Source of the DNA: Eubacteriales bacterium | GTDB taxonomy: Bacteria > Bacillota > Clostridia > Oscillospirales > CAG-382 | Assembly: GCA_028702135.1 (NCBI GenBank) | Contig: JAQVPJ010000008.1 | Coordinates: 11,861-75,860 of the forward strand | Direction of reading: 5' to 3' | Length of the DNA: 64,000 nucleotides | In this document: positions 43,792-50,933 of the stretch, piece after piece | How the letters are laid out: the number at the start of each line of letters is the position of its first letter | Position numbering within the stretch: the first letter of the stretch is position 1 | The notes under the pieces: generated by a model | Seen by the model: only the letters and a program-made list of their open reading frames with translations | Told to the model about the DNA's origin: nothing | The model's database searches: none | Position numbers and translations under genes: made by a program

Positions 43792-44151
43792 TCAACCGGT
43801 TATTCCGTCAAACTCCCGGCCGTTCCCCTCAATACGGATACTTACCCGCTGGGGAAGACAGATTGCAATCTGACCTACCTTACTAATCCTTCCGCTGTTT
43901 ACGCATACCTTTCCGGCGCAGACCGACTCCTTAAAATATGCGCCGTTTTTGTCAACGATTATAGTCGTTCCGTTTAAATAATAAGTAAAAATTTCTTCGT
44001 CTCCGAGCCCTGTGAAATTCACCTCAGTGAACAGGTTACCGTCGTATTCTATTAGAACGGTGCTTCCTTCCTTATTGCCGCTTGCAAAGTATAAAGCCGC
44101 AGAAAACATAAGCAGACATATTATAATAATTATGTCACGCACCTTTATCAT
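43792..44151 (-). CDS. NusG domain II-containing (DUF1312) membrane-anchored protein
   Basis: 119 aa with an N-terminal TM helix and the C-terminal C..KVCVNSGRISKVGQIAICLPQRVSIRI motif. Confidence 0.7.
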   Translation of the reverse strand: MIKVRDIIIIICLLMFSAALYFASGNKEGSTVLIEYDGNLFTEVNFTGLGDEEIFTYYLNGTTIIVDKNGAYFKESVCAGKVCVNSGRISKVGQIAICLPQRVSIRIEGNGREFDGITG

Positions 44152-45152
44152 CTGTATTCCACCTCAAAGTCCTCTTTTACACTGATAAAGTTTTTTAGTC
44201 CGGAGGTTATTATGATTTTTTTGTTTTTGGTAACAAAAACAGCGTCCGCATCGTTTTTTTCAAGAAGAGGAATACTCTTTTCTGTCCCGAGAGCAAAGCA
44301 TGCGGTTGAAAGCATATCACTTAGCATTCCGTTGTTGCAAACGATACTCACGGAAATCAATTCGTTATCGACAGGATAGCCGGTCGATGTATTGAAAATG
44401 TGGTGGTACCGGACGCCGTCCGACTCGAATTGCTTTTCATAACTACCGGAGGTGGATACAAAACCGGATTTCAGTTTTATACCTGCGAATGTTTCGGCGG
44501 CATTATCTGAAAAAGGATCCCTTATCCCGACAAAAAAGTACTCACCACCTGGTTTTGTACCGTTTACGCCGATACTGCCCCCGACTGCAACTATGCCATT
44601 TACGTCCGCATCCCTCAAGGACTGTACTGCCTTATCGCAGGCGTAACCCTTTCCCAATGCTCCAAGGTCGATACTTACCCCGCCGCCGAGGGTTATTTTA
44701 TTATTTTCACCGAAATATATGTTTTCGTAGCCCGTTTTTTCAAGAGCTTCTGTTATCTGTTCAGAAGACGGCACAAAACTCTTCTGACTGTCAAAGTCCC
44801 ATAAAGCGGTCAGCGAAAGCAGGGAAATATCGAAAAAACCCTCAGAAGCACCGCAAAATTCGACAGCTTCGTACAGCATGTTGTATGTTTCTGTATCGAA
44901 TGTTGCTGTTTTTTCTTTGTTTAGCGAGTATATATAAGAATTTTCAACCCTGTGGGATATTTTTTCCTCCACATTTTTTATGTCGGTTTTAATGGTCTCT
45001 AAAAGAGTGCTGTCAACGTCATAAATTGTTACCTGAATATAAGAGCCCATAGCGTAAAATGTGTCAGTCTCTTTTTCCTGCTCGCAGCCGCAAAAAAAGA
45101 CAGTAAGAAGGAAAAACGCAAGCGTTATTATGTTTTTACCGCAACGCTTCAT
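44148..45152 (-). CDS. apbE: FAD:protein FMN transferase (ApbE) lipoprotein
   Basis: Lipobox FFCGC and ApbE motifs (DLGALGKGYA, VSTSGSYE). First gene of the rnf operon. Confidence 0.88.
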   Translation of the reverse strand: MKRCGKNIITLAFFLLTVFFCGCEQEKETDTFYAMGSYIQVTIYDVDSTLLETIKTDIKNVEEKISHRVENSYIYSLNKEKTATFDTETYNMLYEAVEFCGASEGFFDISLLSLTALWDFDSQKSFVPSSEQITEALEKTGYENIYFGENNKITLGGGVSIDLGALGKGYACDKAVQSLRDADVNGIVAVGGSIGVNGTKPGGEYFFVGIRDPFSDNAAETFAGIKLKSGFVSTSGSYEKQFESDGVRYHHIFNTSTGYPVDNELISVSIVCNNGMLSDMLSTACFALGTEKSIPLLEKNDADAVFVTKNKKIIITSGLKNFISVKEDFEVEYR

Positions 45153-45207
45153 ATTAATCCCTTTCCCTGTCAGGCACTAACAGCAAACCACTTTCACCTG
45201 TCAAGAT

Positions 45208-45236
45208 ATTTTACCACTAAAATTCATAACTTTCAA
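45208..45236 (-). promoter_or_regulatory. sigma-A promoter of the apbE-rnf-ldhA operon
   Basis: The minus strand reads TTGAAA, a 17 nt spacer ending in TGG, then TAAAAT (an extended -10). The leader of about 55 nt carries two TGACAGG direct repeats 31 nt apart (plus-strand CCTGTCA at 45166-45172 and 45197-45203). Confidence 0.55.
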
Positions 45237-45269
45237 TACAAATAGCAAAAATGATTGTTTTACCCTGTG

Positions 45270-45298
45270 TTGACATATATTTCATAATTGTTTATAGT
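45270..45298 (+). promoter_or_regulatory. sigma-A promoter upstream of the ECF-like sigma gene
   Basis: TTGACA, a 17 nt spacer, then TATAGT. The 5' UTR contains a hairpin CACCTCT, 16 nt loop, AGAGGTG (45339-45368) just before the GGGGG SD. Confidence 0.55.
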
Positions 45299-45387
45299 AA
45301 AAACAATATATATTTATTAAAATATATGTCACATTTTGCACCTCTCGATTGTTGTATTAGTAGAGGTGAAAACGGGGGTAACCGCAA

Positions 45388-45954
45388 ATGGGGGATAAAC
45401 TATTTGTAAATGACATTTGCGAACAGTCGATTATAAAAATATCGGAGGGTGATATAAGTGCCCTTTCTGTAATTTACGACTGTGTCGGCAGATTAATTTT
45501 TACGGTAGCATTTTCCATATTAGACGATTATCAGTTGTCTCAGGATATTATGCAGGACACTTTTATCCAAATTGCAGACAAAGCCCACACCTATCAAAAG
45601 GGTACTAATGCAAGGGCGTGGATAGTTTCCATAAGCCGGAATTTAGCATTAAACGCACTAAAAAGCAAAAAGCGTGAGGTTCAGACTGATATTAATCCAA
45701 ACAATGCCTATTCCGTATTATCCGAGGATAAGCTAATCGCATCAATTGCTGTATCCGACGCACTTACTTGCTTGACAACACAGGAAAAGGAACTTGTTGT
45801 ATATAAAACCATGAGCAATTTGCCACACAAACAGATTGCTCAGATAATGGGGATTACTACTGCAAATTCAAGACAAAAATACAAAAGAGCAATAGAGAAG
45901 CTTCGGAACTTCTATCTTTCAGAAGGAGGAGTTACTAATGTTCAAAAAAAGTAG
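45388..45954 (+). CDS. ECF-type sigma-70 family RNA polymerase sigma factor
   Basis: 188 aa with region 2 (DIMQDTFIQIADKAHTYQKGTNARAWIVSISRNLALNALK) and a region 4 HTH (LPHKQIAQIMGITTANSRQKYKRAIEKLR). Confidence 0.88.
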   Translation: MGDKLFVNDICEQSIIKISEGDISALSVIYDCVGRLIFTVAFSILDDYQLSQDIMQDTFIQIADKAHTYQKGTNARAWIVSISRNLALNALKSKKREVQTDINPNNAYSVLSEDKLIASIAVSDALTCLTTQEKELVVYKTMSNLPHKQIAQIMGITTANSRQKYKRAIEKLRNFYLSEGGVTNVQKK

Positions 45955-47350
45955 AATCCGTAATTTACTAAAAAACGACCTTTATTCACTTTTTATACCT
46001 GAAAAAGAAAAGGTTTTGCCGGAGCAGGCATTACTGCCGAAAAGAAAAGAAAACGGAAGACAAATATTTCGGATTCGCCCGTTAAAAGCAGCACTGGCTT
46101 GTTTGTTACTAATAGTATTATGCACGAGTTTATATCTGCCTTTGAAGTATTCTGCACCTCCGGTTGTTGACGATACTTCGATAGATTCGAATATACCTTC
46201 AATCAACTCAACAGGTACAACTTCATCCGGTGTTGCCGAAGAACCAAAGTTTGTAATCTCAGCGGATGTTTATGATGGTTCTTTGAACAAAGACGAAGGC
46301 ATCCCGAATAGTTCAGAAATATATATATCCGACATGTTAAAAACAAAAATGGAGGAATACAAGGGTCAGGATGTATTGTTCAGGGTGTTAGTCGATTTAC
46401 CTGCAACTCAGGAAGAAACACAGAATTTTTTAGAAAATATACTTTTTGAGTCTGATGAATATACCAAATTTGCTAACAGAATCCGGGAATTGGAAGCTGA
46501 ACTTGAGACTTATAGCGAATATATCGAAATTGCAGCGGAATATCATCGTATTGCAACCGAAATAAAAGAAGAGACCATGGAGCCTAATCAGGAATTCGAG
46601 GAGCTAAAAAAAGAGTATGAGCGTATAAAACCTTTTAGTGACAGAGCGCGTGAGATTTATGAAGAAATTCACAGAATTAAAAGAATTTGTCTATTCAGGT
46701 ACTACGACGTGTTAAAATCCGAGAAACTTGAATTCGCCAAAAATTTAGGTGCTGTTATTGCAGAGCCGGAATACACAGATTCTGAGATTAAACTTTCCTA
46801 TTTCGGCAATACCGATGCTATTGTTATGAACTTGTCTGAGGGTATAATTACAGAGATGGCTGCACGCGGAGGCTTTGCTTTCAAGCTTGCTGCACCTGAC
46901 CGTGCGGAGGGATATGACGGTAAAATCTCAGATTCGCTCACCGTGCTTCTGGATCAAGCTTCGACAGACGATAAGTACCACGTTGCTGTTGTAACCGTAT
47001 TGGATAAGACCAACGGATTCGCTTCATATAGGTTTGCACAATATAATCCTAAATATAATACTTCACTAAACAAAGGCCTTCAGGGTGTATTAACTAACGA
47101 AAGAGTAAAAGAATTTATCGATGATATTCTGGCAAGAAACAGCATTTCCGAAATGCGGATAAAGAACAGTAATCTACCGGACTTTTGTATAGCAAACGAT
47201 GGAGAAACGAACGTTTTTATTGGGTATGCCGGTTTTGAGGCAGACCTGACAAAAGAGCAGATACTCACTTTAACCGAAGATCCGGATGTAAAGGTTATCT
47301 ATCCTATGAATGTTTCCGGTGCTGATGATTATGTCAATGGTGACGCTTAA
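45938..47350 (+). CDS. putative single-pass anti-sigma factor with an ectodomain of two subtilase-propeptide-like modules
   Basis: Overlaps the sigma gene by 17 nt. It has a short cytoplasmic N-terminus, one TM helix (LKAALACLLLIVLCTSLYL) and an ectodomain of about 400 aa. The ectodomain resembles the pro-region of the adjacent S8 protein, including a strong I9-like motif YAGFEADLTKEQILTLTEDPDVKVIYP. Confidence 0.6.
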   Translation: MFKKSRIRNLLKNDLYSLFIPEKEKVLPEQALLPKRKENGRQIFRIRPLKAALACLLLIVLCTSLYLPLKYSAPPVVDDTSIDSNIPSINSTGTTSSGVAEEPKFVISADVYDGSLNKDEGIPNSSEIYISDMLKTKMEEYKGQDVLFRVLVDLPATQEETQNFLENILFESDEYTKFANRIRELEAELETYSEYIEIAAEYHRIATEIKEETMEPNQEFEELKKEYERIKPFSDRAREIYEEIHRIKRICLFRYYDVLKSEKLEFAKNLGAVIAEPEYTDSEIKLSYFGNTDAIVMNLSEGIITEMAARGGFAFKLAAPDRAEGYDGKISDSLTVLLDQASTDDKYHVAVVTVLDKTNGFASYRFAQYNPKYNTSLNKGLQGVLTNERVKEFIDDILARNSISEMRIKNSNLPDFCIANDGETNVFIGYAGFEADLTKEQILTLTEDPDVKVIYPMNVSGADDYVNGDA

Positions 47351-47381
47351 TAATATGCCCCCCCTCTTTTCACATAACAAA

Positions 47382-47425
47382 GGAGCTTCCTTCCGGATAA
47401 TATTTCCGAGAGGAAGTTCCTTTTT
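47382..47425. terminator. bidirectional terminator between the anti-sigma and S8 genes
   Basis: GGAGCTTCC, a 21 nt loop, GGAAGTTCC, then TTTTT. The minus strand gives TTTGTTAT after the stem. Confidence 0.6.
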
Positions 47426-47456
47426 AGTCAGTATATTATTTCTGACAAGCTAAAGG

Positions 47457-49184
47457 TTACCACCATGCAACCCCGTAATAAACAACCTTGTCCGAATTGG
47501 AATACTGTTTAACCATTATTCTGTACTGCCCTACCATTGTAGGCTCAAAATCTACGATTTCTAAGTTATTGCTGCCGCTTGTCGCGTATTCAATAAGATT
47601 TCCGTTTGGATCGTAAACATACAGGTCAAGATCTGCAAGCCTGCCTAATGTAGGAGTTCCTGTCGTATGGCTTCCGGTAATATAGGAGTGCTTATCCCAT
47701 GTAAGAGAAACTCTTATTTGATCATCGGAGGAGGAAACGTTAAAATAATAGTTTACCGTCGAACCGTTTGCACTGTTTGCTGCAAATGTAGATGAAGCAT
47801 AACGTCCGTTAGCAACCGTATATCTGGAACCCTGCGCATCCACGAGTCCTGCTCCGTAAATATTGAAATTGGTCGTCTGCGATGTTTCATAATGAATGTA
47901 ATCATGGTTTACGGAAGCGGTTATTATCGCTTTTAATGCCGCCTGTTTCGTCTTCAATGTGGCGTTGAGATGCAGCATCTGTGCGACCACAGCAGTCACA
48001 TGCGGTGCGGCAAAACTAGTGCCTGAATCCGTTCCGGCGTCAGTCGTAATGTTGCTTCCGGGAGCAACTAAATCCGGCTTGGTTGTATTGCCCGATACTT
48101 GCGTATAGCTTGAATAGCTTGCAATTGCGTCATCGCTCTGATACGATGTGTTATTGTCGTCTATCGCTCCCACGGTTATCACATTGTATGCCATTCCCGG
48201 AGAGGCGACATATCCGCCGTTGTTTCCCGCAGCAACAACATAATGTACGCTGTGCATTATAGCTATATGATCCACCCACATATCGTTTGAACCATATGTT
48301 CCTGTAGAGCTGAATCCGTGACTCATATTAATCACATTGACGCCCTGGCTTAACAGCCACTCAACCCGTGCTTTCCAGTTTCCTGTCATTCTTGTTGAGT
48401 ATATCTGAACATCAGGTGCGATCTCAATAATTATACTTGCTACTTCGTTAGCATGTAAAGTGTTGTAATATGAAACATTAGGATCATATGTAATGTTTGC
48501 CGCGGCTAAATCCGGCGTTGCTGTTTTACTCGGCATTCCGCTTTCGATTTGCCCCACTTTTATTCCGCTACCCGTTAATCCGAAAGTGTCTCTCGTATAG
48601 TTTGCTCTAATAAGCGGAACGCTTACATTACAAGAGTCACTTCCTTGACATTCATCCCGGTAATAAATACTCAACACCCGGCTGTCCTGTGATAACTTCT
48701 CTATCTCGTTTTTTGTCAAATCCATGGAGATCATAGGTGCGTACTGGCTTTTAAATATAATTTTGCTCTCAAGACCTTCTAAGTCTACGGTTTTCAGGAA
48801 TTTTTCGTGCGCTATGTTCTGTTTTGCTTTCGAAATCTCCCTTTCCGCAAGGATATATGCATCATATTTTTTCGATTGTTTTGCAGTTGTCATATATCCG
48901 TTTATTTTAGCCGCTTGTTCCAAAGACTCTTTAGCCAGGGATTCCTTGTTATACCCCGTAACTGCCTTAACCTCACTCTCGATTTCAGCTTCGTCTACCC
49001 CTTTAAACCACACATCGACCGGAATGAGTTCCTCTTTTTCCCCGTTCTCAAGCACTTCTGCGAGTTTTTCTGTTATTTTGCTGCTGTCGCTTGCCATACT
49101 CTCGGCACTTACAAGATTACAGGGAATTGAAAACAATAATGTAAAAACCAATATCAAAGATAGCACTTTAATGTTTTTTTTCAT
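47457..49184 (-). CDS. secreted subtilase (S8) homologue with a pro-region, a C-terminal P/prepeptidase-like domain and an atypical catalytic-site sequence
   Basis: Signal peptide ending VSAES, GTSFAAPHVTA (Ser) and AAGNNGG (oxyanion Asn). The Asp motif reads VGQIESG and the His motif reads TLHANEVAS. ATG 49184 is preferred to TTG 49190. Confidence 0.8.
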   Translation of the reverse strand: MKKNIKVLSLILVFTLLFSIPCNLVSAESMASDSSKITEKLAEVLENGEKEELIPVDVWFKGVDEAEIESEVKAVTGYNKESLAKESLEQAAKINGYMTTAKQSKKYDAYILAEREISKAKQNIAHEKFLKTVDLEGLESKIIFKSQYAPMISMDLTKNEIEKLSQDSRVLSIYYRDECQGSDSCNVSVPLIRANYTRDTFGLTGSGIKVGQIESGMPSKTATPDLAAANITYDPNVSYYNTLHANEVASIIIEIAPDVQIYSTRMTGNWKARVEWLLSQGVNVINMSHGFSSTGTYGSNDMWVDHIAIMHSVHYVVAAGNNGGYVASPGMAYNVITVGAIDDNNTSYQSDDAIASYSSYTQVSGNTTKPDLVAPGSNITTDAGTDSGTSFAAPHVTAVVAQMLHLNATLKTKQAALKAIITASVNHDYIHYETSQTTNFNIYGAGLVDAQGSRYTVANGRYASSTFAANSANGSTVNYYFNVSSSDDQIRVSLTWDKHSYITGSHTTGTPTLGRLADLDLYVYDPNGNLIEYATSGSNNLEIVDFEPTMVGQYRIMVKQYSNSDKVVYYGVAWW

Positions 49185-49348
49185 TTTCAAAATTCCTTTC
49201 TTTTACCTTTTTGTCTGATGGCCTTATCAACTGTTTATTTGCTATGTTAAGGCGGCTCATGAATGCGTTCCGAAAACCGATACATACTGACTTCACCTCC
49301 TGTTTTTTTACATAATATCTTATGTTTTGTAAATAATTGCCATTAATA

Positions 49349-49368
49349 ACAAATATGTAAATATTTGT
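49349..49368. promoter_or_regulatory. perfect 8-4-8 inverted repeat at the predicted +1 of the S8 promoter (candidate operator)
   Basis: ACAAATAT-GTAA-ATATTTGT, located 10-30 nt downstream of the -10 box on the minus strand. Confidence 0.45.
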
Positions 49369-49377
49369 GTCCTTTTT

Positions 49378-49405
49378 ATTATACCACATTTTTTAAAATT
49401 GTCAA
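49378..49405 (-). promoter_or_regulatory. near-consensus extended -10 sigma-A promoter of the S8 gene
   Basis: The minus strand reads TTGACA, a 16 nt spacer ending in TGG, then TATAAT. This implies a leader of about 185 nt. Confidence 0.6.
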
Positions 49406-49460
49406 TATATGTAATATTAATTTTAATACGACAAAATTCTATCTTTTTTTCTAAAAAAGC

Positions 49461-49489
49461 TTGCTTATTTTTACCGGTGATATTAGAAT
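49461..49489 (+). promoter_or_regulatory. sigma-A promoter of the serine hydrolase gene
   Basis: TTGCTT, a 17 nt spacer, then TAGAAT. A GGAGG SD at 49511 and the ATG at 49521 follow. Confidence 0.45.
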
Positions 49490-49520
49490 GTTGGCGAAAA
49501 AACAACTTTCGGAGGAAAAC

Positions 49521-50933
49521 ATGAACAACATTCATCTGACAAGGGGAGCAAACCCGGGAGCAGTGTGTGATTTTATAAATAGCTGTTACGACTCGGGAAC
49601 AAATCTTCATTCCTTTCAATATGTGAAGGGTGGCAGGGTTGTAGCAAAAGTGGCTTTAAGTCCTTACTCTTTCATCGAAAAAATGCTGGTTTATTCGCTA
49701 TCCAAGTCATTTACCTCCGCTTGTGTCGGGGTGGCACAATCGGAGGGCATTTTGAACATCGACGAAAGGATTGTGGATATATTCCCCGATAAATGTCCCG
49801 ATATTATAAGTGAAAATCTCTCTGAAATGCGTATAAAGGATTGCTTGTGTATGACAAGCGGACATTCTGCTTGTGTTTTTGAGCATCTCCAGAACCAAAA
49901 AGACCCCGTCAGGTATTTTTTATCGCAACCTTTAGATTACCGTCCGGGAACAACATTTGTTTACAGTACTGCGGCGACATTCATCTGCGGAGCTGCCGTT
50001 ACAAAAAGAAGCGGGATGAACCTGCTTGATTATTTATACGAAAAAGTCCTGAAGAAAATGGATTTGGAAAAACCCGAATGGAGGAGCTGCCCCGATGGCA
50101 GCAAGTTCGGCGGCACGGGGCTTGTTATTTCCGGCGACAGTATAACCGAATTCGGAAAGATGATCTGCAACGGCGGCGTTTATAAGGGAAAGAAAATTAT
50201 CCCCGAGGAGTGGATAAAAACCGCGTCTTCGATTCATTCGGTCACTCCCAAAAACGGGACGGCTGACTGGACTGCGGGTTACGGATATCAGTTCTGGTTA
50301 AACGCGCGGGGAGGTTTTCGCGGTGATGGTGCATATGGTCAGCTTTGTATGATCTTTCCCGAACGAGATATTGTTTTTACCGTGCTGAGTGAATCCATAA
50401 ACATGCAGAAGGAGGTTGACTGTGTATATCGGCTTCTTGATGAAATAGACAAACCGGACGACGGCAGGATTGAAGAATTGAAGACTCTTGTTCAGACTCT
50501 TTATCTTCCAGAAAAGTGTAAGAGTGACTTTAAGAGAGTAGAGTACAAGCCAAAAAAAAATATCGCAGGTATATCTGCGATAGTGCTTGATCCGTGCGAC
50601 GACGGTATTGTTGTTAGCCTGGAATGTGATTACAAAACGCAAAAAATCCAGTGCGGCAATGGTTTTTACAAGAAAAACCAACTGCTACTAAAAAACCTTA
50701 CACCGGGCATCTGGACAAAATTTATTGAAGAAAAACCGCGTGAGATTAATGTTTATGCCTCGTACAACGACAGTTCGCAAAACGAAATAACCGTTACCCT
50801 GCGTCACATAGACGCTCCGCATACGCAGGTTTGGCATTTTCCCAAAAAAGAAGACGGGGATTGGTATATCACAATGCACTGCGGCGCATTAAATCCGCAG
50901 ATTGTGAAAACGCCCGTAATTATTAACCGATAA
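49521..50933 (+). CDS. serine hydrolase of the beta-lactamase (class C / esterase) family with a C-terminal extra domain
   Basis: SxxK motif SLSKSF near residue 60. About 470 aa from MNNIHLTRG. The start follows GGAGGAAAAC. Confidence 0.75.
   Translation: MNNIHLTRGANPGAVCDFINSCYDSGTNLHSFQYVKGGRVVAKVALSPYSFIEKMLVYSLSKSFTSACVGVAQSEGILNIDERIVDIFPDKCPDIISENLSEMRIKDCLCMTSGHSACVFEHLQNQKDPVRYFLSQPLDYRPGTTFVYSTAATFICGAAVTKRSGMNLLDYLYEKVLKKMDLEKPEWRSCPDGSKFGGTGLVISGDSITEFGKMICNGGVYKGKKIIPEEWIKTASSIHSVTPKNGTADWTAGYGYQFWLNARGGFRGDGAYGQLCMIFPERDIVFTVLSESINMQKEVDCVYRLLDEIDKPDDGRIEELKTLVQTLYLPEKCKSDFKRVEYKPKKNIAGISAIVLDPCDDGIVVSLECDYKTQKIQCGNGFYKKNQLLLKNLTPGIWTKFIEEKPREINVYASYNDSSQNEITVTLRHIDAPHTQVWHFPKKEDGDWYITMHCGALNPQIVKTPVIINR

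What the first reader, a model, noticed from the sequence alone, without database searches (positions are those of the whole stretch)
45270..49405. The anti-sigma ectodomain is built from two copies of the neighbouring subtilase's pro-region module
Three things are visible directly in the translations.

1. The 188-aa ECF-like sigma gene overlaps a 470-aa single-pass membrane protein gene by 17 nt. This is the classic sigma / anti-sigma arrangement.

2. The ectodomain of that protein contains two tandem modules with the same layout as the pro-region of the convergent S8 subtilase, which lies 100 nt away.

The start of each module aligns as follows:
- S8: KITEKLAEVLENGEKEELIPVDVWFKG
- module 1: YISDMLKTKMEEYKGQDVLFRVLVDLP
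- module 2: KISDSLTVLLDQASTDDKYHVAVVTVLD

The end of each module aligns as follows:
- S8: YAPMISMDLTKNEIEKLSQDSRVLSIYY
- module 1: NTDAIVMNLSEGIITEMAARGGFAFKL
- module 2: YAGFEADLTKEQILTLTEDPDVKVIYP

3. The shared core, DLTK-EI--L--D--V--IY, is the hallmark C-terminal beta-alpha-beta of subtilisin propeptides (inhibitor I9 fold).

Propeptides are tight-binding inhibitors and substrates of their cognate subtilases. I therefore infer that the anti-sigma either docks onto the neighbouring secreted subtilase or is cleaved by it. That would couple extracellular protease state to sigma release, acting as a protease-gated site-1 cleavage. I do not know of a described ECF group with a propeptide-mimic sensor domain.
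Basis: partly seen in the sequence, partly recalled or inferred. Interest (0 to 1): 0.72.

Follow-up and report, generated by a model that had tools for sequence, protein, structure and literature searches.

The report
Anti-sigma factor with protease-propeptide-like sensor
A membrane regulator that holds a bacterial sigma factor in check has an outer domain built from modules related to the "pro" segment of a secreted subtilisin-type protease encoded next door, which suggests the cell senses or restrains its own protease at its surface.

Summary
An ECF sigma gene (45388-45954) overlaps a 470-aa single-pass membrane protein gene (45938-47350) by 17 nt. A secreted S8 subtilase (47457-49190, minus strand) converges on them 106 nt away.

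Pairwise BLASTP shows nothing, but profiles do. Module 2 (aa 323-456) aligns end to end with the S8 clade's pro-region (hhalign E 1e-5; z about 10-20 against shuffles). Pfam Inhibitor_I9 is the top family across the homologues. AlphaFold models give both modules and the S8 pro-region the same order of secondary-structure elements. Module 1 is a more divergent copy, supported only in segments.

New findings:
- The ectodomain belongs to a wider family (69 clusters) of membrane-tethered two-module proteins. Some lack the anti-sigma head and any sigma gene.
- A same-clade S8 gene, or in one case its pseudogene, is the immediate neighbour at 5 of 12 informative loci, in three different arrangements.
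- A conserved ECF promoter (TGTCAC-N17-YGTT) precedes the sigma operon, not S8. S8 has a perfect housekeeping promoter.

Most likely this is a tethered propeptide-like decoy or inhibitor for the S8, fused here to an anti-sigma head. Cleavage-gated sigma release is plausible but untested. It is a new variant of ECF signalling.

The parts
45270..45298 (+). SigmaA-like promoter of the sigma/anti-sigma operon (TTGACA-N17-TATAGT, 11 of 12 matches)
   Evidence: Consensus scan; sequence read. Function is inferred.
45327..45357 (+). Conserved ECF-type promoter motif TGTCAC-N17-(T/C)GTT, the presumed autoregulatory promoter
   Evidence: Present in the same position upstream of sigma in 8 loci. It is the only zero-mismatch match in the 64-kb window and the only position-weight-matrix hit of 12 bits or more per locus.
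45388..45954 (+). ECF sigma factor gene (188 aa; regions 2 and 4 only)
   Evidence: Pfam Sigma70_r2 E 6.7e-13 and Sigma70_r4_2 E 7.5e-9. TIGR02937 scores 73.3 bits against a cutoff of 42.9; no specific ECF model reaches its own cutoff.
45938..46078 (+). Cytoplasmic head of the putative anti-sigma (aa 1-47), with conserved motif IPEKEKVLPxQAL
   Evidence: Conserved in alignment A1 and in the L122 384-aa protein. No Pfam anti-sigma domain was found. Low pLDDT.
46079..46132 (+). Single transmembrane helix (aa 48-65)
   Evidence: AlphaFold helix at 48-65. Homologues show hydrophobic segments in the same place.
46250..46903 (+). Module 1 (aa 105-322): a divergent propeptide-like module carrying a four-helix coiled-coil insert (aa 158-269, nt 46409-46744)
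   Evidence: AlphaFold elements H132-140, E146-153, four helices, E295-299, H301-310, E314-317, with pLDDT about 90. Segment hhalign z 3.9-9.7. Full-length and compact-form comparisons match only locally. Many homologues lack the insert.
46904..47305 (+). Module 2 (aa 323-456): I9/propeptide-like module homologous to the S8 clade's pro-region
   Evidence: hhalign E 1.2e-5 and 4.6e-5 over 130-133 columns, z about 10-20. Pfam Inhibitor_I9 matches 3 of 9 homologues, best E 1.7e-6. The S8 pro-region HMM hits only this ORF and the S8 in the whole window. The best PDB sequence match is the N-terminal region of an S8 peptidase, 8jmw_A, E 0.015.
47306..47350 (+). Disordered C-terminal tail (aa 457-470) and stop codon; the protein ends about 14 residues after the last strand of module 2
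   Evidence: pLDDT below 50 for aa 459-470. The family's median tail is 14 aa. The tail is acidic at its end in the anti-sigma subgroup; some other members have only 4-5 residues.
47379..47424 (.). Hairpin between the convergent genes, a probable bidirectional terminator
   Evidence: RNAfold gives -27 kcal/mol, with an A-tract before and a T-tract after the stem. The only Rfam hit here is a spurious miRNA hairpin.
47457..49190 (-). Secreted S8 subtilase gene (577 aa from the TTG start; homologue P0010 starts at the ATG at 49184). It has a signal peptide (aa 1-29), a catalytic domain and a PPC domain (aa 481-561).
   Evidence: Pfam Peptidase_S8 E 3.3e-25 and PPC E 8.7e-7. Aligns to subtilisin BPN'. 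659 homologues found.
48636..49103 (-). S8 pro-region (aa 30-185): an I9/Tk-SP-N-pro-like propeptide with a three-helix insert
   Evidence: AlphaFold pLDDT 84, with elements H12-20, E27-33, three helices, E115-118, E124-129, H131-138, E143-148. 17 of the top 20 Foldseek hits are subtilase propeptide or pro-enzyme chains, the best being 8c4z_A at prob 0.96. Weak collinear Pfam hits to Tk-SP_N-pro and Inhibitor_I9.
48543..48545 (-). Glu216 codon at the position of catalytic Asp32 of subtilisin (His246, Asn323 and Ser392 are retained)
   Evidence: phmmer alignment to BPN'. 112 of 116 clade members have Glu here and 4 have Asp. Coordinates.
49378..49405 (-). Perfect sigmaA-type promoter of S8 (TTGACA-N16-TATAAT with a TG extension), followed by a leader of about 190 nt
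   Evidence: 12 of 12 consensus matches. The promoter is conserved in L001 but the leader is not. No ECF motif and no Rfam family.

Best explanation
The 470-aa protein is a membrane-tethered, two-module propeptide-like protein whose partner is the secreted Glu-His-Ser S8 subtilase encoded beside it. Its modules descend from the same ancestor as that S8 clade's own pro-region, and they sit on the outer face of the membrane. Subtilase propeptides bind, inhibit and are eventually degraded by their cognate mature enzymes. By that analogy, the ectodomain most likely binds mature S8 at the cell surface as a decoy or inhibitor.

In this locus the tethered protein is fused to a short cytoplasmic head and a TM helix, and its gene overlaps an ECF sigma gene, so it doubles as the anti-sigma. 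When S8 occupies or trims the ectodomain, the anti-sigma would be destabilised (site-1 cleavage followed by intramembrane proteolysis) and sigma released. Sigma then drives the conserved TGTCAC-N17-YGTT promoter of its own operon. The one output seen here is more anti-sigma, which means more tethered inhibitor. That would be a homeostatic loop matching surface protection to protease load.

**Shown:** the gene arrangement, the homology of module 2, the shared fold layout, recurrent S8 adjacency, the autoregulatory-type promoter, and the separate housekeeping promoter of S8.

**Inferred:** binding, inhibition, cleavage, sigma sequestration and release.
For: **Homology of the ectodomain to the S8 pro-region.**
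- hhalign E about 1e-5 end to end, and 1e-8 on the core, with shuffle controls.
- The alignment includes a shared insert helix, V..YI.....R. This ties module 2 to this clade's pro-region rather than to I9 domains in general.
- Inhibitor_I9 is the top Pfam family across homologues.
- The AlphaFold element order matches, and both models have subtilase propeptides among their top Foldseek hits, with the same first hit.

**Recurrent gene linkage.** A same-clade S8 or its pseudogene is the immediate neighbour at 5 of 12 informative family loci, in three arrangements. The partner S8s are spread across the clade. Background was 0 same-clade S8 in 672 kb.

**Sigma-less tethered forms next to S8.** P0180 is a lipoprotein and P0136 is signal-anchored. 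This points to an S8-directed role that does not depend on signalling.

**Sigma linkage.** A sigma gene lies directly upstream, overlapping or abutting, at 10 of 12 informative loci.

**Promoter evidence.** The ECF-type promoter is conserved in 8 loci, only in front of the sigma operon.

**L122.** This gene cluster encodes sigma, an anti-sigma family member and a second head-less paralogue 18 nt further on. That fits a regulon whose output is tethered module protein.

**Published precedents.**
- Propeptides are selective inhibitors of cognate subtilases (PMC10580911).
- A stand-alone propeptide-like inhibitor of a subtilase exists in Plasmodium (PMC6993865).
- An anti-sigma can act as a direct receptor for an enzyme: RsiV binds lysozyme (PMC4183432).
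Against: - No biochemical or modelling evidence of binding or cleavage.
- Seven of 12 informative loci have no S8 in the flanks available. Some flanks are only 2-3 kb, but P0002, P0004, L122 and L125 have 6-8 kb on each side.
- The S8 clade (659 or more hits) is much larger than the module family (69 clusters). Most S8s therefore lack such a partner nearby.
- No known anti-sigma domain was detected in the 47-aa head.
- Module 1 homology is weak.
- A subgroup has only 4-5 residues after the last strand. That is probably too short to reach an active-site cleft in the way a propeptide C-terminus does.
- Foldseek E-values never reach 1e-3.
- Only the autoregulatory promoter was found, so the regulon is unknown.
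Confidence: 0.45

Rival explanations
1. The protein is a tethered inhibitor or chaperone only. The ectodomain binds or inhibits S8, or helps it fold or stay at the surface, but this does not gate sigma. The anti-sigma is inactivated by some other cue such as envelope stress, and its job is simply to scale expression of the tethered protein.
For: Sigma-less lipoprotein and anchored family members sit next to S8. S8 transcription is independent of the ECF motif. L122 carries an extra head-less paralogue in the sigma gene cluster.
Against: Fusing the sensor-side domain to an anti-sigma head at 10 of 12 informative loci is the standard way of coupling ligand state to sigma release. No other candidate sensor domain is present in the protein.
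Confidence: 0.2
2. The domain was co-opted and the linkage is historical. The modules arose by ancient duplication of an S8 pro-region, but now form a generic small alpha/beta sensor domain that binds something unrelated. Under this view, S8 adjacency is a remnant of the duplication event and is not selected.
For: The sequences have diverged beyond BLAST detection. Seven of 12 informative loci lack an adjacent S8, and one adjacent S8 is a pseudogene. The fold is a common ferredoxin-like one, and Foldseek also hits MORF proteins and ribosomal protein S6.
Against: Adjacency persists through rearrangements (convergent, co-directional, upstream) and across family members only 20-35% identical to each other. 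The partner S8s span the clade. Gene order without selection rarely survives that much divergence; this last point is established general knowledge, not tested here.
Confidence: 0.2
3. The resemblance is chance or compositional similarity between helix-rich, charged regions, and the 470-aa protein is an ordinary anti-sigma factor with an uncharacterised ectodomain.
For: Pairwise BLASTP is negative. Foldseek E-values are all 0.03 or higher. The window protein's own Inhibitor_I9 hit is sub-threshold.
Against: Profile-profile scores are 10-20 SD above column-shuffled nulls and near zero for reversed profiles. The alignment is collinear over 130 columns. The S8 pro-region HMM picks out only this ORF among all window ORFs. 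Adjacency recurs in independent loci.
Confidence: 0.03

Closest known systems
Subtilase propeptides and stand-alone propeptide-like inhibitors (MEROPS/Pfam Inhibitor_I9). Examples: the subtilisin BPN' prosegment 1SPB, the Plasmodium SUB1 propeptide-like inhibitor (PMC6993865), and, from my own knowledge, yeast PBI2 and plant SPI-1.
   Same: The core is a small alpha/beta module ending in strand-helix-strand, and both modules and the S8 pro-region fit this. Inhibitor_I9 is the top Pfam family across the anti-sigma's homologues. Subtilase propeptides are among the top Foldseek hits for both models, with the same first hit. The module sits at the protein's C-terminus, so it ends with a free C-terminal tail, as a cleaved propeptide does. 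It is encoded separately from, and next to, a subtilase.
   Different: There are two tandem modules, each with an extra N-terminal helix and a helical insert; module 1's insert is a 110-aa coiled coil. The protein is membrane-tethered by a TM helix, signal anchor or lipid. Here it is fused to an anti-sigma head. The window sequence is below Pfam's threshold. Inhibition has not been tested.
ECF sigma with a single-pass anti-sigma controlled by regulated proteolysis, especially SigV/RsiV, where the anti-sigma ectodomain is a direct receptor for an enzyme, lysozyme (PMC4183432). From my own knowledge, also SigW/RsiW-PrsW.
   Same: The sigma and anti-sigma genes overlap. The anti-sigma is single-pass with its N-terminus inside. 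There is an autoregulatory ECF-type promoter. The proposed ligand is an extracellular enzyme.
   Different: The ectodomain is unrelated to RsiV or RsiW. The head is only 47 aa and matches no known anti-sigma domain. The proposed ligand is the cell's own secreted protease rather than a host enzyme. The -35 element is TGTCAC rather than the usual AAC type.
SigI/RsgI systems of Clostridium thermocellum (PMC10328401)
   Same: These are Firmicute anti-sigma factors whose modular extracellular domains are borrowed from the secreted-enzyme repertoire they regulate. In RsgI the modules are carbohydrate-binding; here they are propeptide-like.
   Different: The sigma family differs (SigI-type there, ECF here). 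RsgI relies on autoproteolysis of a conserved periplasmic domain that is absent here. The sensing modules are different.

Membership tests
ECF sigma factor (sigma-70 group 4) | Only regions sigma2 and sigma4, and a score above the TIGR02937 cutoff | tested here: met
   Sigma70_r2 and Sigma70_r4_2 are the only sigma domains found. TIGR02937 scores 73.3 bits against a cutoff of 42.9.
ECF sigma factor (sigma-70 group 4) | Assignment to a defined, characterised ECF group | tested here: not met
   All 99 specific NCBIfam ECF models score far below their cutoffs, for example 69 bits against 261. The ECF Hub HMMs were not available, so this is not a full test.
ECF sigma factor (sigma-70 group 4) | An autoregulatory promoter with group-specific -35 and -10 elements upstream of its own operon | tested here: met
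   TGTCAC-N17-(T/C)GTT is conserved in 8 loci directly upstream of sigma. Its function is inferred.
Membrane anti-sigma factor | Gene adjacent to, overlapping and co-directional with the sigma gene | tested here: met
   17-nt overlap. The arrangement is conserved at 10 of 12 informative loci.
Membrane anti-sigma factor | A recognisable cytoplasmic anti-sigma domain (class I ASD, zf-HC2, RskA and similar) | tested here: not met
   No such Pfam or NCBIfam hit at E <= 1 in the window protein or any of 8 homologues. The head is only 47 aa, though it is conserved.
Membrane anti-sigma factor | Physical binding and inhibition of the cognate sigma | not testable with these tools
   Needs complex modelling, a two-hybrid assay or pull-downs.
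Inhibitor_I9 / subtilase propeptide fold | Pfam PF05922 hit above the gathering score | tested here: inconclusive
   The window protein scores 13.3 bits against a cutoff of 21.2 (E 0.14). Three of 9 homologues match, best E 1.7e-6. Four of 22 S8 pro-regions match weakly.
Inhibitor_I9 / subtilase propeptide fold | Beta-alpha-beta-beta-alpha-beta core that is structurally similar to solved propeptides | tested here: inconclusive
   The AlphaFold element order is compatible, with added helices. Foldseek top hits are subtilase propeptides, but E is 0.03 or higher.
Inhibitor_I9 / subtilase propeptide fold | Homology to a bona fide subtilase N-terminal pro-region | tested here: met
   Module 2 against the S8 clade's pro-region gives hhalign E 1e-5 to 1e-8 and z 10-20. 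Module 1 matches only in segments.
Inhibitor_I9 / subtilase propeptide fold | Inhibits, or is processed by, a cognate subtilase | not testable with these tools
   Needs biochemistry or multimer modelling.
Peptidase S8 (subtilase), for the neighbouring gene | Pfam PF00082 above threshold, and homology to subtilisin | tested here: met
   89.4 bits against a cutoff of 21.8. phmmer to subtilisin BPN' gives E 4e-12.
Peptidase S8 (subtilase), for the neighbouring gene | Asp-His-Ser catalytic triad | tested here: not met
   The Asp32 position is Glu216. His246, Asn323 and Ser392 are present. Glu is found in 112 of 116 clade members.

The most novel reading that the evidence does not exclude
This would be an ECF pathway whose sensor is a decoy copy of a protease's own propeptide. 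The cell reads the activity of its own secreted Glu-His-Ser subtilase at the membrane surface: the subtilase destroys the tethered decoy, which acts as protease-gated site-1 cleavage. The cell responds by making more tethered inhibitor. That would be a self-protease homeostat and a previously undescribed class of anti-sigma sensor domain.
Probability: 0.3. Interest if true: 0.8.

Novelty: new variant of a known kind. Interest (0 to 1): 0.62.

Why it matters
For most ECF sigma/anti-sigma pairs in Firmicutes the signal is unknown. Here the sensor domain's ancestry names a specific candidate ligand, encoded next door, which makes the signal directly testable.

If the link holds, it would add three things:
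- Bacteria would join the organisms that use free-standing propeptide-like subtilase inhibitors. In the literature retrieved here these are described for Plasmodium, and from my own knowledge for fungi and plants.
- It would show a new way of generating site-1 cleavage, by the cell's own exoprotease acting on a propeptide mimic.
- It would define a family of surface-tethered two-module proteins (69 clusters at 50% identity) that currently has no annotation.

The partner enzyme clade is also unusual, because it carries Glu in place of the catalytic Asp.

Tried and rejected
- **Pairwise BLASTP** of module 1, module 2 and the S8 pro-region found no alignment.
- **Full-length hhalign of module 1** against the S8 pro-region or module 2 was not above the shuffle null. 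A profile of compact, insert-free module 1 forms aligned only over the C-terminal strand-helix-strand (z 4.3 and 2.8).
- **Foldseek** of both models against the PDB gave no hit at E <= 1e-3.
- **The module 2 profile HMM against 1.84 billion representatives** recovered no S8 pro-regions. The link is visible only profile-to-profile and, marginally, against PDB sequences (8jmw_A, E 0.015). The S8 pro-region profile found nothing in the PDB.
- **S8 under the ECF sigma** was rejected for the window and L001. There is no motif upstream of S8, and S8 has a perfect sigmaA promoter instead.
- **A known riboswitch or leader RNA in the S8 leader:** Rfam found none, and the leader is poorly conserved.
- **Alignment-based locus scans** failed with diverse alignments. 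The genome scan returned only two loci I already had. The third homologue search added only P0180. The metagenome pattern scan gave 105 stretches, of which only 3 were family loci.
- **Literature searches** for an ECF or anti-sigma link with I9, propeptide or S8 found nothing relevant. A search for Glu-His-Ser subtilases also found nothing.
- **No classification against ECF Hub groups** was possible.

Full report
**What is there**

The window encodes a 188-aa sigma factor (45388-45954, +). Its gene overlaps by 17 nt the gene for a 470-aa protein (45938-47350, +). A 577-aa protein (47457-49190, -) is encoded convergently, 106 nt away.

- **Sigma.** It has only Sigma70_r2 and Sigma70_r4_2 and passes the general ECF model TIGR02937 (73 bits against a cutoff of 43). 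It reaches no specific ECF model's cutoff.
- **S8.** The 577-aa protein is a Peptidase_S8 with a C-terminal PPC domain and an N-terminal Sec-type signal sequence ending VSA|ES, read directly from the translation.
- **The 470-aa protein.** It has no above-threshold family hit. AlphaFold gives one TM helix at aa 48-65 and a disordered linker to about aa 100. The ectodomain is confident, with pLDDT about 85-95 over aa 120-458.
- **Intergenic region.** Between the convergent genes lies a -27 kcal/mol hairpin flanked by an A-tract and a T-tract, a probable bidirectional terminator.

**Checking the claimed similarity**

Pairwise BLASTP of module 1, module 2 and the S8 pro-region finds nothing.

With family profiles the picture changes. 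I aligned the 470-aa protein with its 8 full-length homologues and aligned the pro-regions of the S8 clade.

*Module 2 (aa 323-470) against the S8 pro-region:*
E is 1.2e-5 with my own run and 4.6e-5 with the tool's.
- Column-shuffled versions of the module 2 profile score 12.3 +/- 2.5 (maximum 21) against a real score of 37.9. A reversed profile scores 10.7.
- With only the conserved N- and C-terminal segments, E is 1e-8 and z about 20.
- The alignment also pairs an insert helix carrying V..YI.....R in both families. Canonical I9 domains lack this helix, so it ties module 2 to this S8 clade's pro-region in particular.
- When the S8 pro-region HMM is scanned over every six-frame ORF of the window, it hits only the S8 and module 2 (E 0.006, full module length).
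- The best match of the module 2 profile among 177,635 PDB sequences is residues 88-143 of an S8 peptidase, 8jmw_A (E 0.015).

*Module 1 (aa 105-322) is much less certain:*
- Whole-module comparisons are not above the null.
- The C-terminal strand-helix-strand matches the S8 pro-region in register (z 7.2). The N-terminal helix-strand matches module 2 (z 3.9). The concatenated ends match module 2 at E 2.7e-4 (z 9.7). I chose those segments knowing the proposed alignment.
- A profile of insert-free module 1 forms from distant relatives again matches only the C-terminal part (z 4.3 and 2.8).

**Fold**

The AlphaFold model of the S8 pro-region (pLDDT 84) and the model of the anti-sigma give the same order of elements three times over: a one-residue bridge, a 9-residue helix, a 7-8-residue strand, a helical insert, one or two strands, a 7-10-residue helix, and a final strand.

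| Module | Helical insert |
|---|---|
| S8 pro-region | three helices |
| Module 2 | two short helices |
| Module 1 | four-helix coiled coil, about 110 aa (aa 158-269) |

Foldseek against the PDB gives no hit at E <= 1e-3 for either model. For the S8 pro-region, 17 of the top 20 hits are subtilase propeptide or pro-enzyme chains, including Proteinase T, cucumisin, Tk-subtilisin, BPN', CspB and Tk-SP. The anti-sigma model shares the same top hit (8c4z_A) and also 1spb_P, 8gkp_J, 3afg and 3whi.

Pfam Inhibitor_I9 is sub-threshold in the window protein (E 0.14, aa 429-456 on profile positions 48-75). It is still the most frequent family among the homologues (3 of 9, best E 1.7e-6) and among the S8 pro-regions (4 of 22), together with Tk-SP_N-pro.

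I conclude that module 2 is a true homologue of this S8 clade's I9-like pro-region. Module 1 is probably an older or faster-evolving copy of the same unit.

**A wider family**

The close family is tiny: 9 proteins among 5.8 billion, and 2 loci in 185,579 reference genomes. A module 2 profile nevertheless finds 69 cluster representatives at E <= 1e-3 among 1.84 billion.

Almost all of them have the layout N-terminal hydrophobic segment, module 1, then C-terminal module 2.
- Many have a compact module 1 without the coiled coil.
- Some have the 40-50-aa cytoplasmic head of the window protein.
- Many have only a signal anchor or lipoprotein signal. Examples are P0180 (…LSCFSGC) and P0136, whose true start appears to be an upstream GTG encoding a signal sequence.
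- Module 2 is always C-terminal, with a median of 14 residues after the last strand. A subgroup ends after only 4-5 residues.

**Gene neighbourhoods**

*Sigma.* At 10 of the 12 loci informative for the upstream side, an ECF sigma gene lies directly upstream, overlapping or abutting. P0008 sits at a contig start and is uninformative.

*S8.* A same-clade S8 gene, or its remnant, is the immediate neighbour at 5 of the 12 loci informative for S8. P0005's contig is too short to tell.

| Locus | Arrangement of S8 |
|---|---|
| Window | convergent, 106 nt away |
| P0003 | convergent |
| P0006 | co-directional, 185 nt downstream |
| P0136 | co-directional, 62 nt downstream; no sigma; this S8 is P0031 |
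| P0180 | directly upstream; no sigma; the S8 carries an internal deletion joining mid pro-region to just after the catalytic Ser, so it is a pseudogene seen on two contigs |

No S8 lies in the available flanks of P0002, P0004, L122 or L125 (6-8 kb on each side), nor of P0007, P0008 or P0009 (2-3 kb).

The partner S8s fall in at least three separate parts of the clade. In 102 unrelated metagenome loci (672 kb), four held some distant S8 and none held one of this clade. Adjacency is therefore far above chance, and it survives rearrangement.

In L122 the cluster is sigma, then a 384-aa family member with the anti-sigma head, then 18 nt later a second paralogue with only a signal anchor.

**Regulation**

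A motif, TGTCAC-N17-(T/C)GTT, lies 30-60 nt upstream of the sigma start codon in 8 loci whose proteins are only 30-50% identical. It occurs once in the window with no mismatch (45327-45357). It has the spacing of an ECF promoter, so I read it as the autoregulatory promoter. A sigmaA-like promoter lies just upstream of it (45270-45298).

The motif is absent upstream of S8 in the window, L001 and L006. S8 instead has a perfect TTGACA-N16-TGnTATAAT promoter (49405-49378), which is conserved in L001. It is followed by a poorly conserved leader of about 190 nt with no Rfam match.

S8 expression is therefore not visibly under this sigma in the window. At the co-directional loci, read-through from the sigma operon is possible.

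**How it most likely works**

From established knowledge, subtilase propeptides bind their mature enzymes tightly, inhibit them and are then degraded by them. Three published points are relevant:
- Cognate selectivity is documented (PMC10580911).
- Free-standing propeptide-like inhibitors exist (PMC6993865).
- An anti-sigma ectodomain can be a direct receptor for an enzyme, as with RsiV and lysozyme (PMC4183432).

Putting these together with the data, the family is best explained as surface-tethered propeptide-like decoys or inhibitors for the Glu-type S8 clade. In the window's version, the tether is also an anti-sigma. S8 occupancy or trimming of the ectodomain would start regulated proteolysis and free the sigma. 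The one promoter identified then makes more sigma and more tethered protein.

The S8 partnership looks primary, because it exists without sigma. The output looks homeostatic rather than an S8 induction circuit. Every functional step is inference; I put the overall model at about 0.45.

The rivals are:
- a tethered inhibitor whose sigma is gated by another cue (0.2);
- a co-opted domain with only historical linkage to S8 (0.2);
- chance resemblance (0.03).

**Comparison with what is known, and novelty**

The system works like a classical ECF sigma with a single-pass anti-sigma. It is most like SigV/RsiV in having an enzyme as the proposed ligand. It is like SigI/RsgI in borrowing a module from the secreted-enzyme repertoire (PMC10328401).

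It does not meet the membership tests for any characterised ECF group or anti-sigma domain. As an Inhibitor_I9 member it is borderline by Pfam but clearly homologous to a real pro-region. Literature searches found no anti-sigma with a propeptide-like sensor.

I rate it a new variant of a known kind, with interest 0.62. The homology and linkage are solid and make a specific signal testable. The mechanism is unproven and the family is rare.

Noticed in passing
window 48543-48545 (-), S8 residue 216: The neighbouring S8 has Glu where subtilisin has catalytic Asp32 (GQIESG against AVIDSG). His, the oxyanion Asn and Ser are kept. Of 116 clade members, 112 have Glu and 4 have Asp, so this is a predominantly Glu-His-Ser subtilase clade. 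No paper describing one was found.
   Followed up: partly
L014 5969-6873 and L015 1-695: Next to the lipoprotein family member P0180, the same-clade S8 is a pseudogene. An internal deletion joins the middle of the pro-region to the sequence just after the catalytic Ser, leaving a 123-aa pro-fragment ORF and a 134-aa PPC-domain ORF. The same structure appears on two independent contigs.
   Followed up: partly
L122 5303-8218; L044 257-1890: Family genes occur as tandem paralogues. In L122, sigma and an anti-sigma-type member (384 aa, compact module 1) are followed 18 nt later by a second member that has only a signal anchor (P0143). L044 also shows two adjacent family ORFs on a short contig.
   Followed up: partly
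window 49247-49285 (-), within the S8 leader: A 12-codon ORF (MYRFSERIHEPP) with a strong Shine-Dalgarno sequence (AGGAGGTGA) sits in the roughly 190-nt leader between the perfect sigmaA promoter and the S8 start. The leader matches no Rfam family and is poorly conserved in L001, apart from a CGGTTTT block and the ribosome-binding site.
   Followed up: partly
window 44001-50000: GC content drops to 0.39-0.40 across the sigma/anti-sigma/S8 cluster, against 0.44-0.48 in the flanking DNA. This could mean the cluster was acquired separately, or it could simply reflect the composition of secreted-protein genes.
   Followed up: no
proteins P0182 and P0186 (629 and 646 aa): Two distant relatives carry two module-2-like copies in tandem. 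The second copy is matched over its full length by the S8 pro-region HMM (E about 1e-5), so the number of modules varies within the family.
   Followed up: no
L125 4292-5855: Just upstream of the P0148 sigma/anti-sigma pair lies another pair, in the order 351-aa protein then ECF sigma. The 351-aa protein has a short cytoplasmic head and one TM segment, and none of my module HMMs hit it.
   Followed up: no
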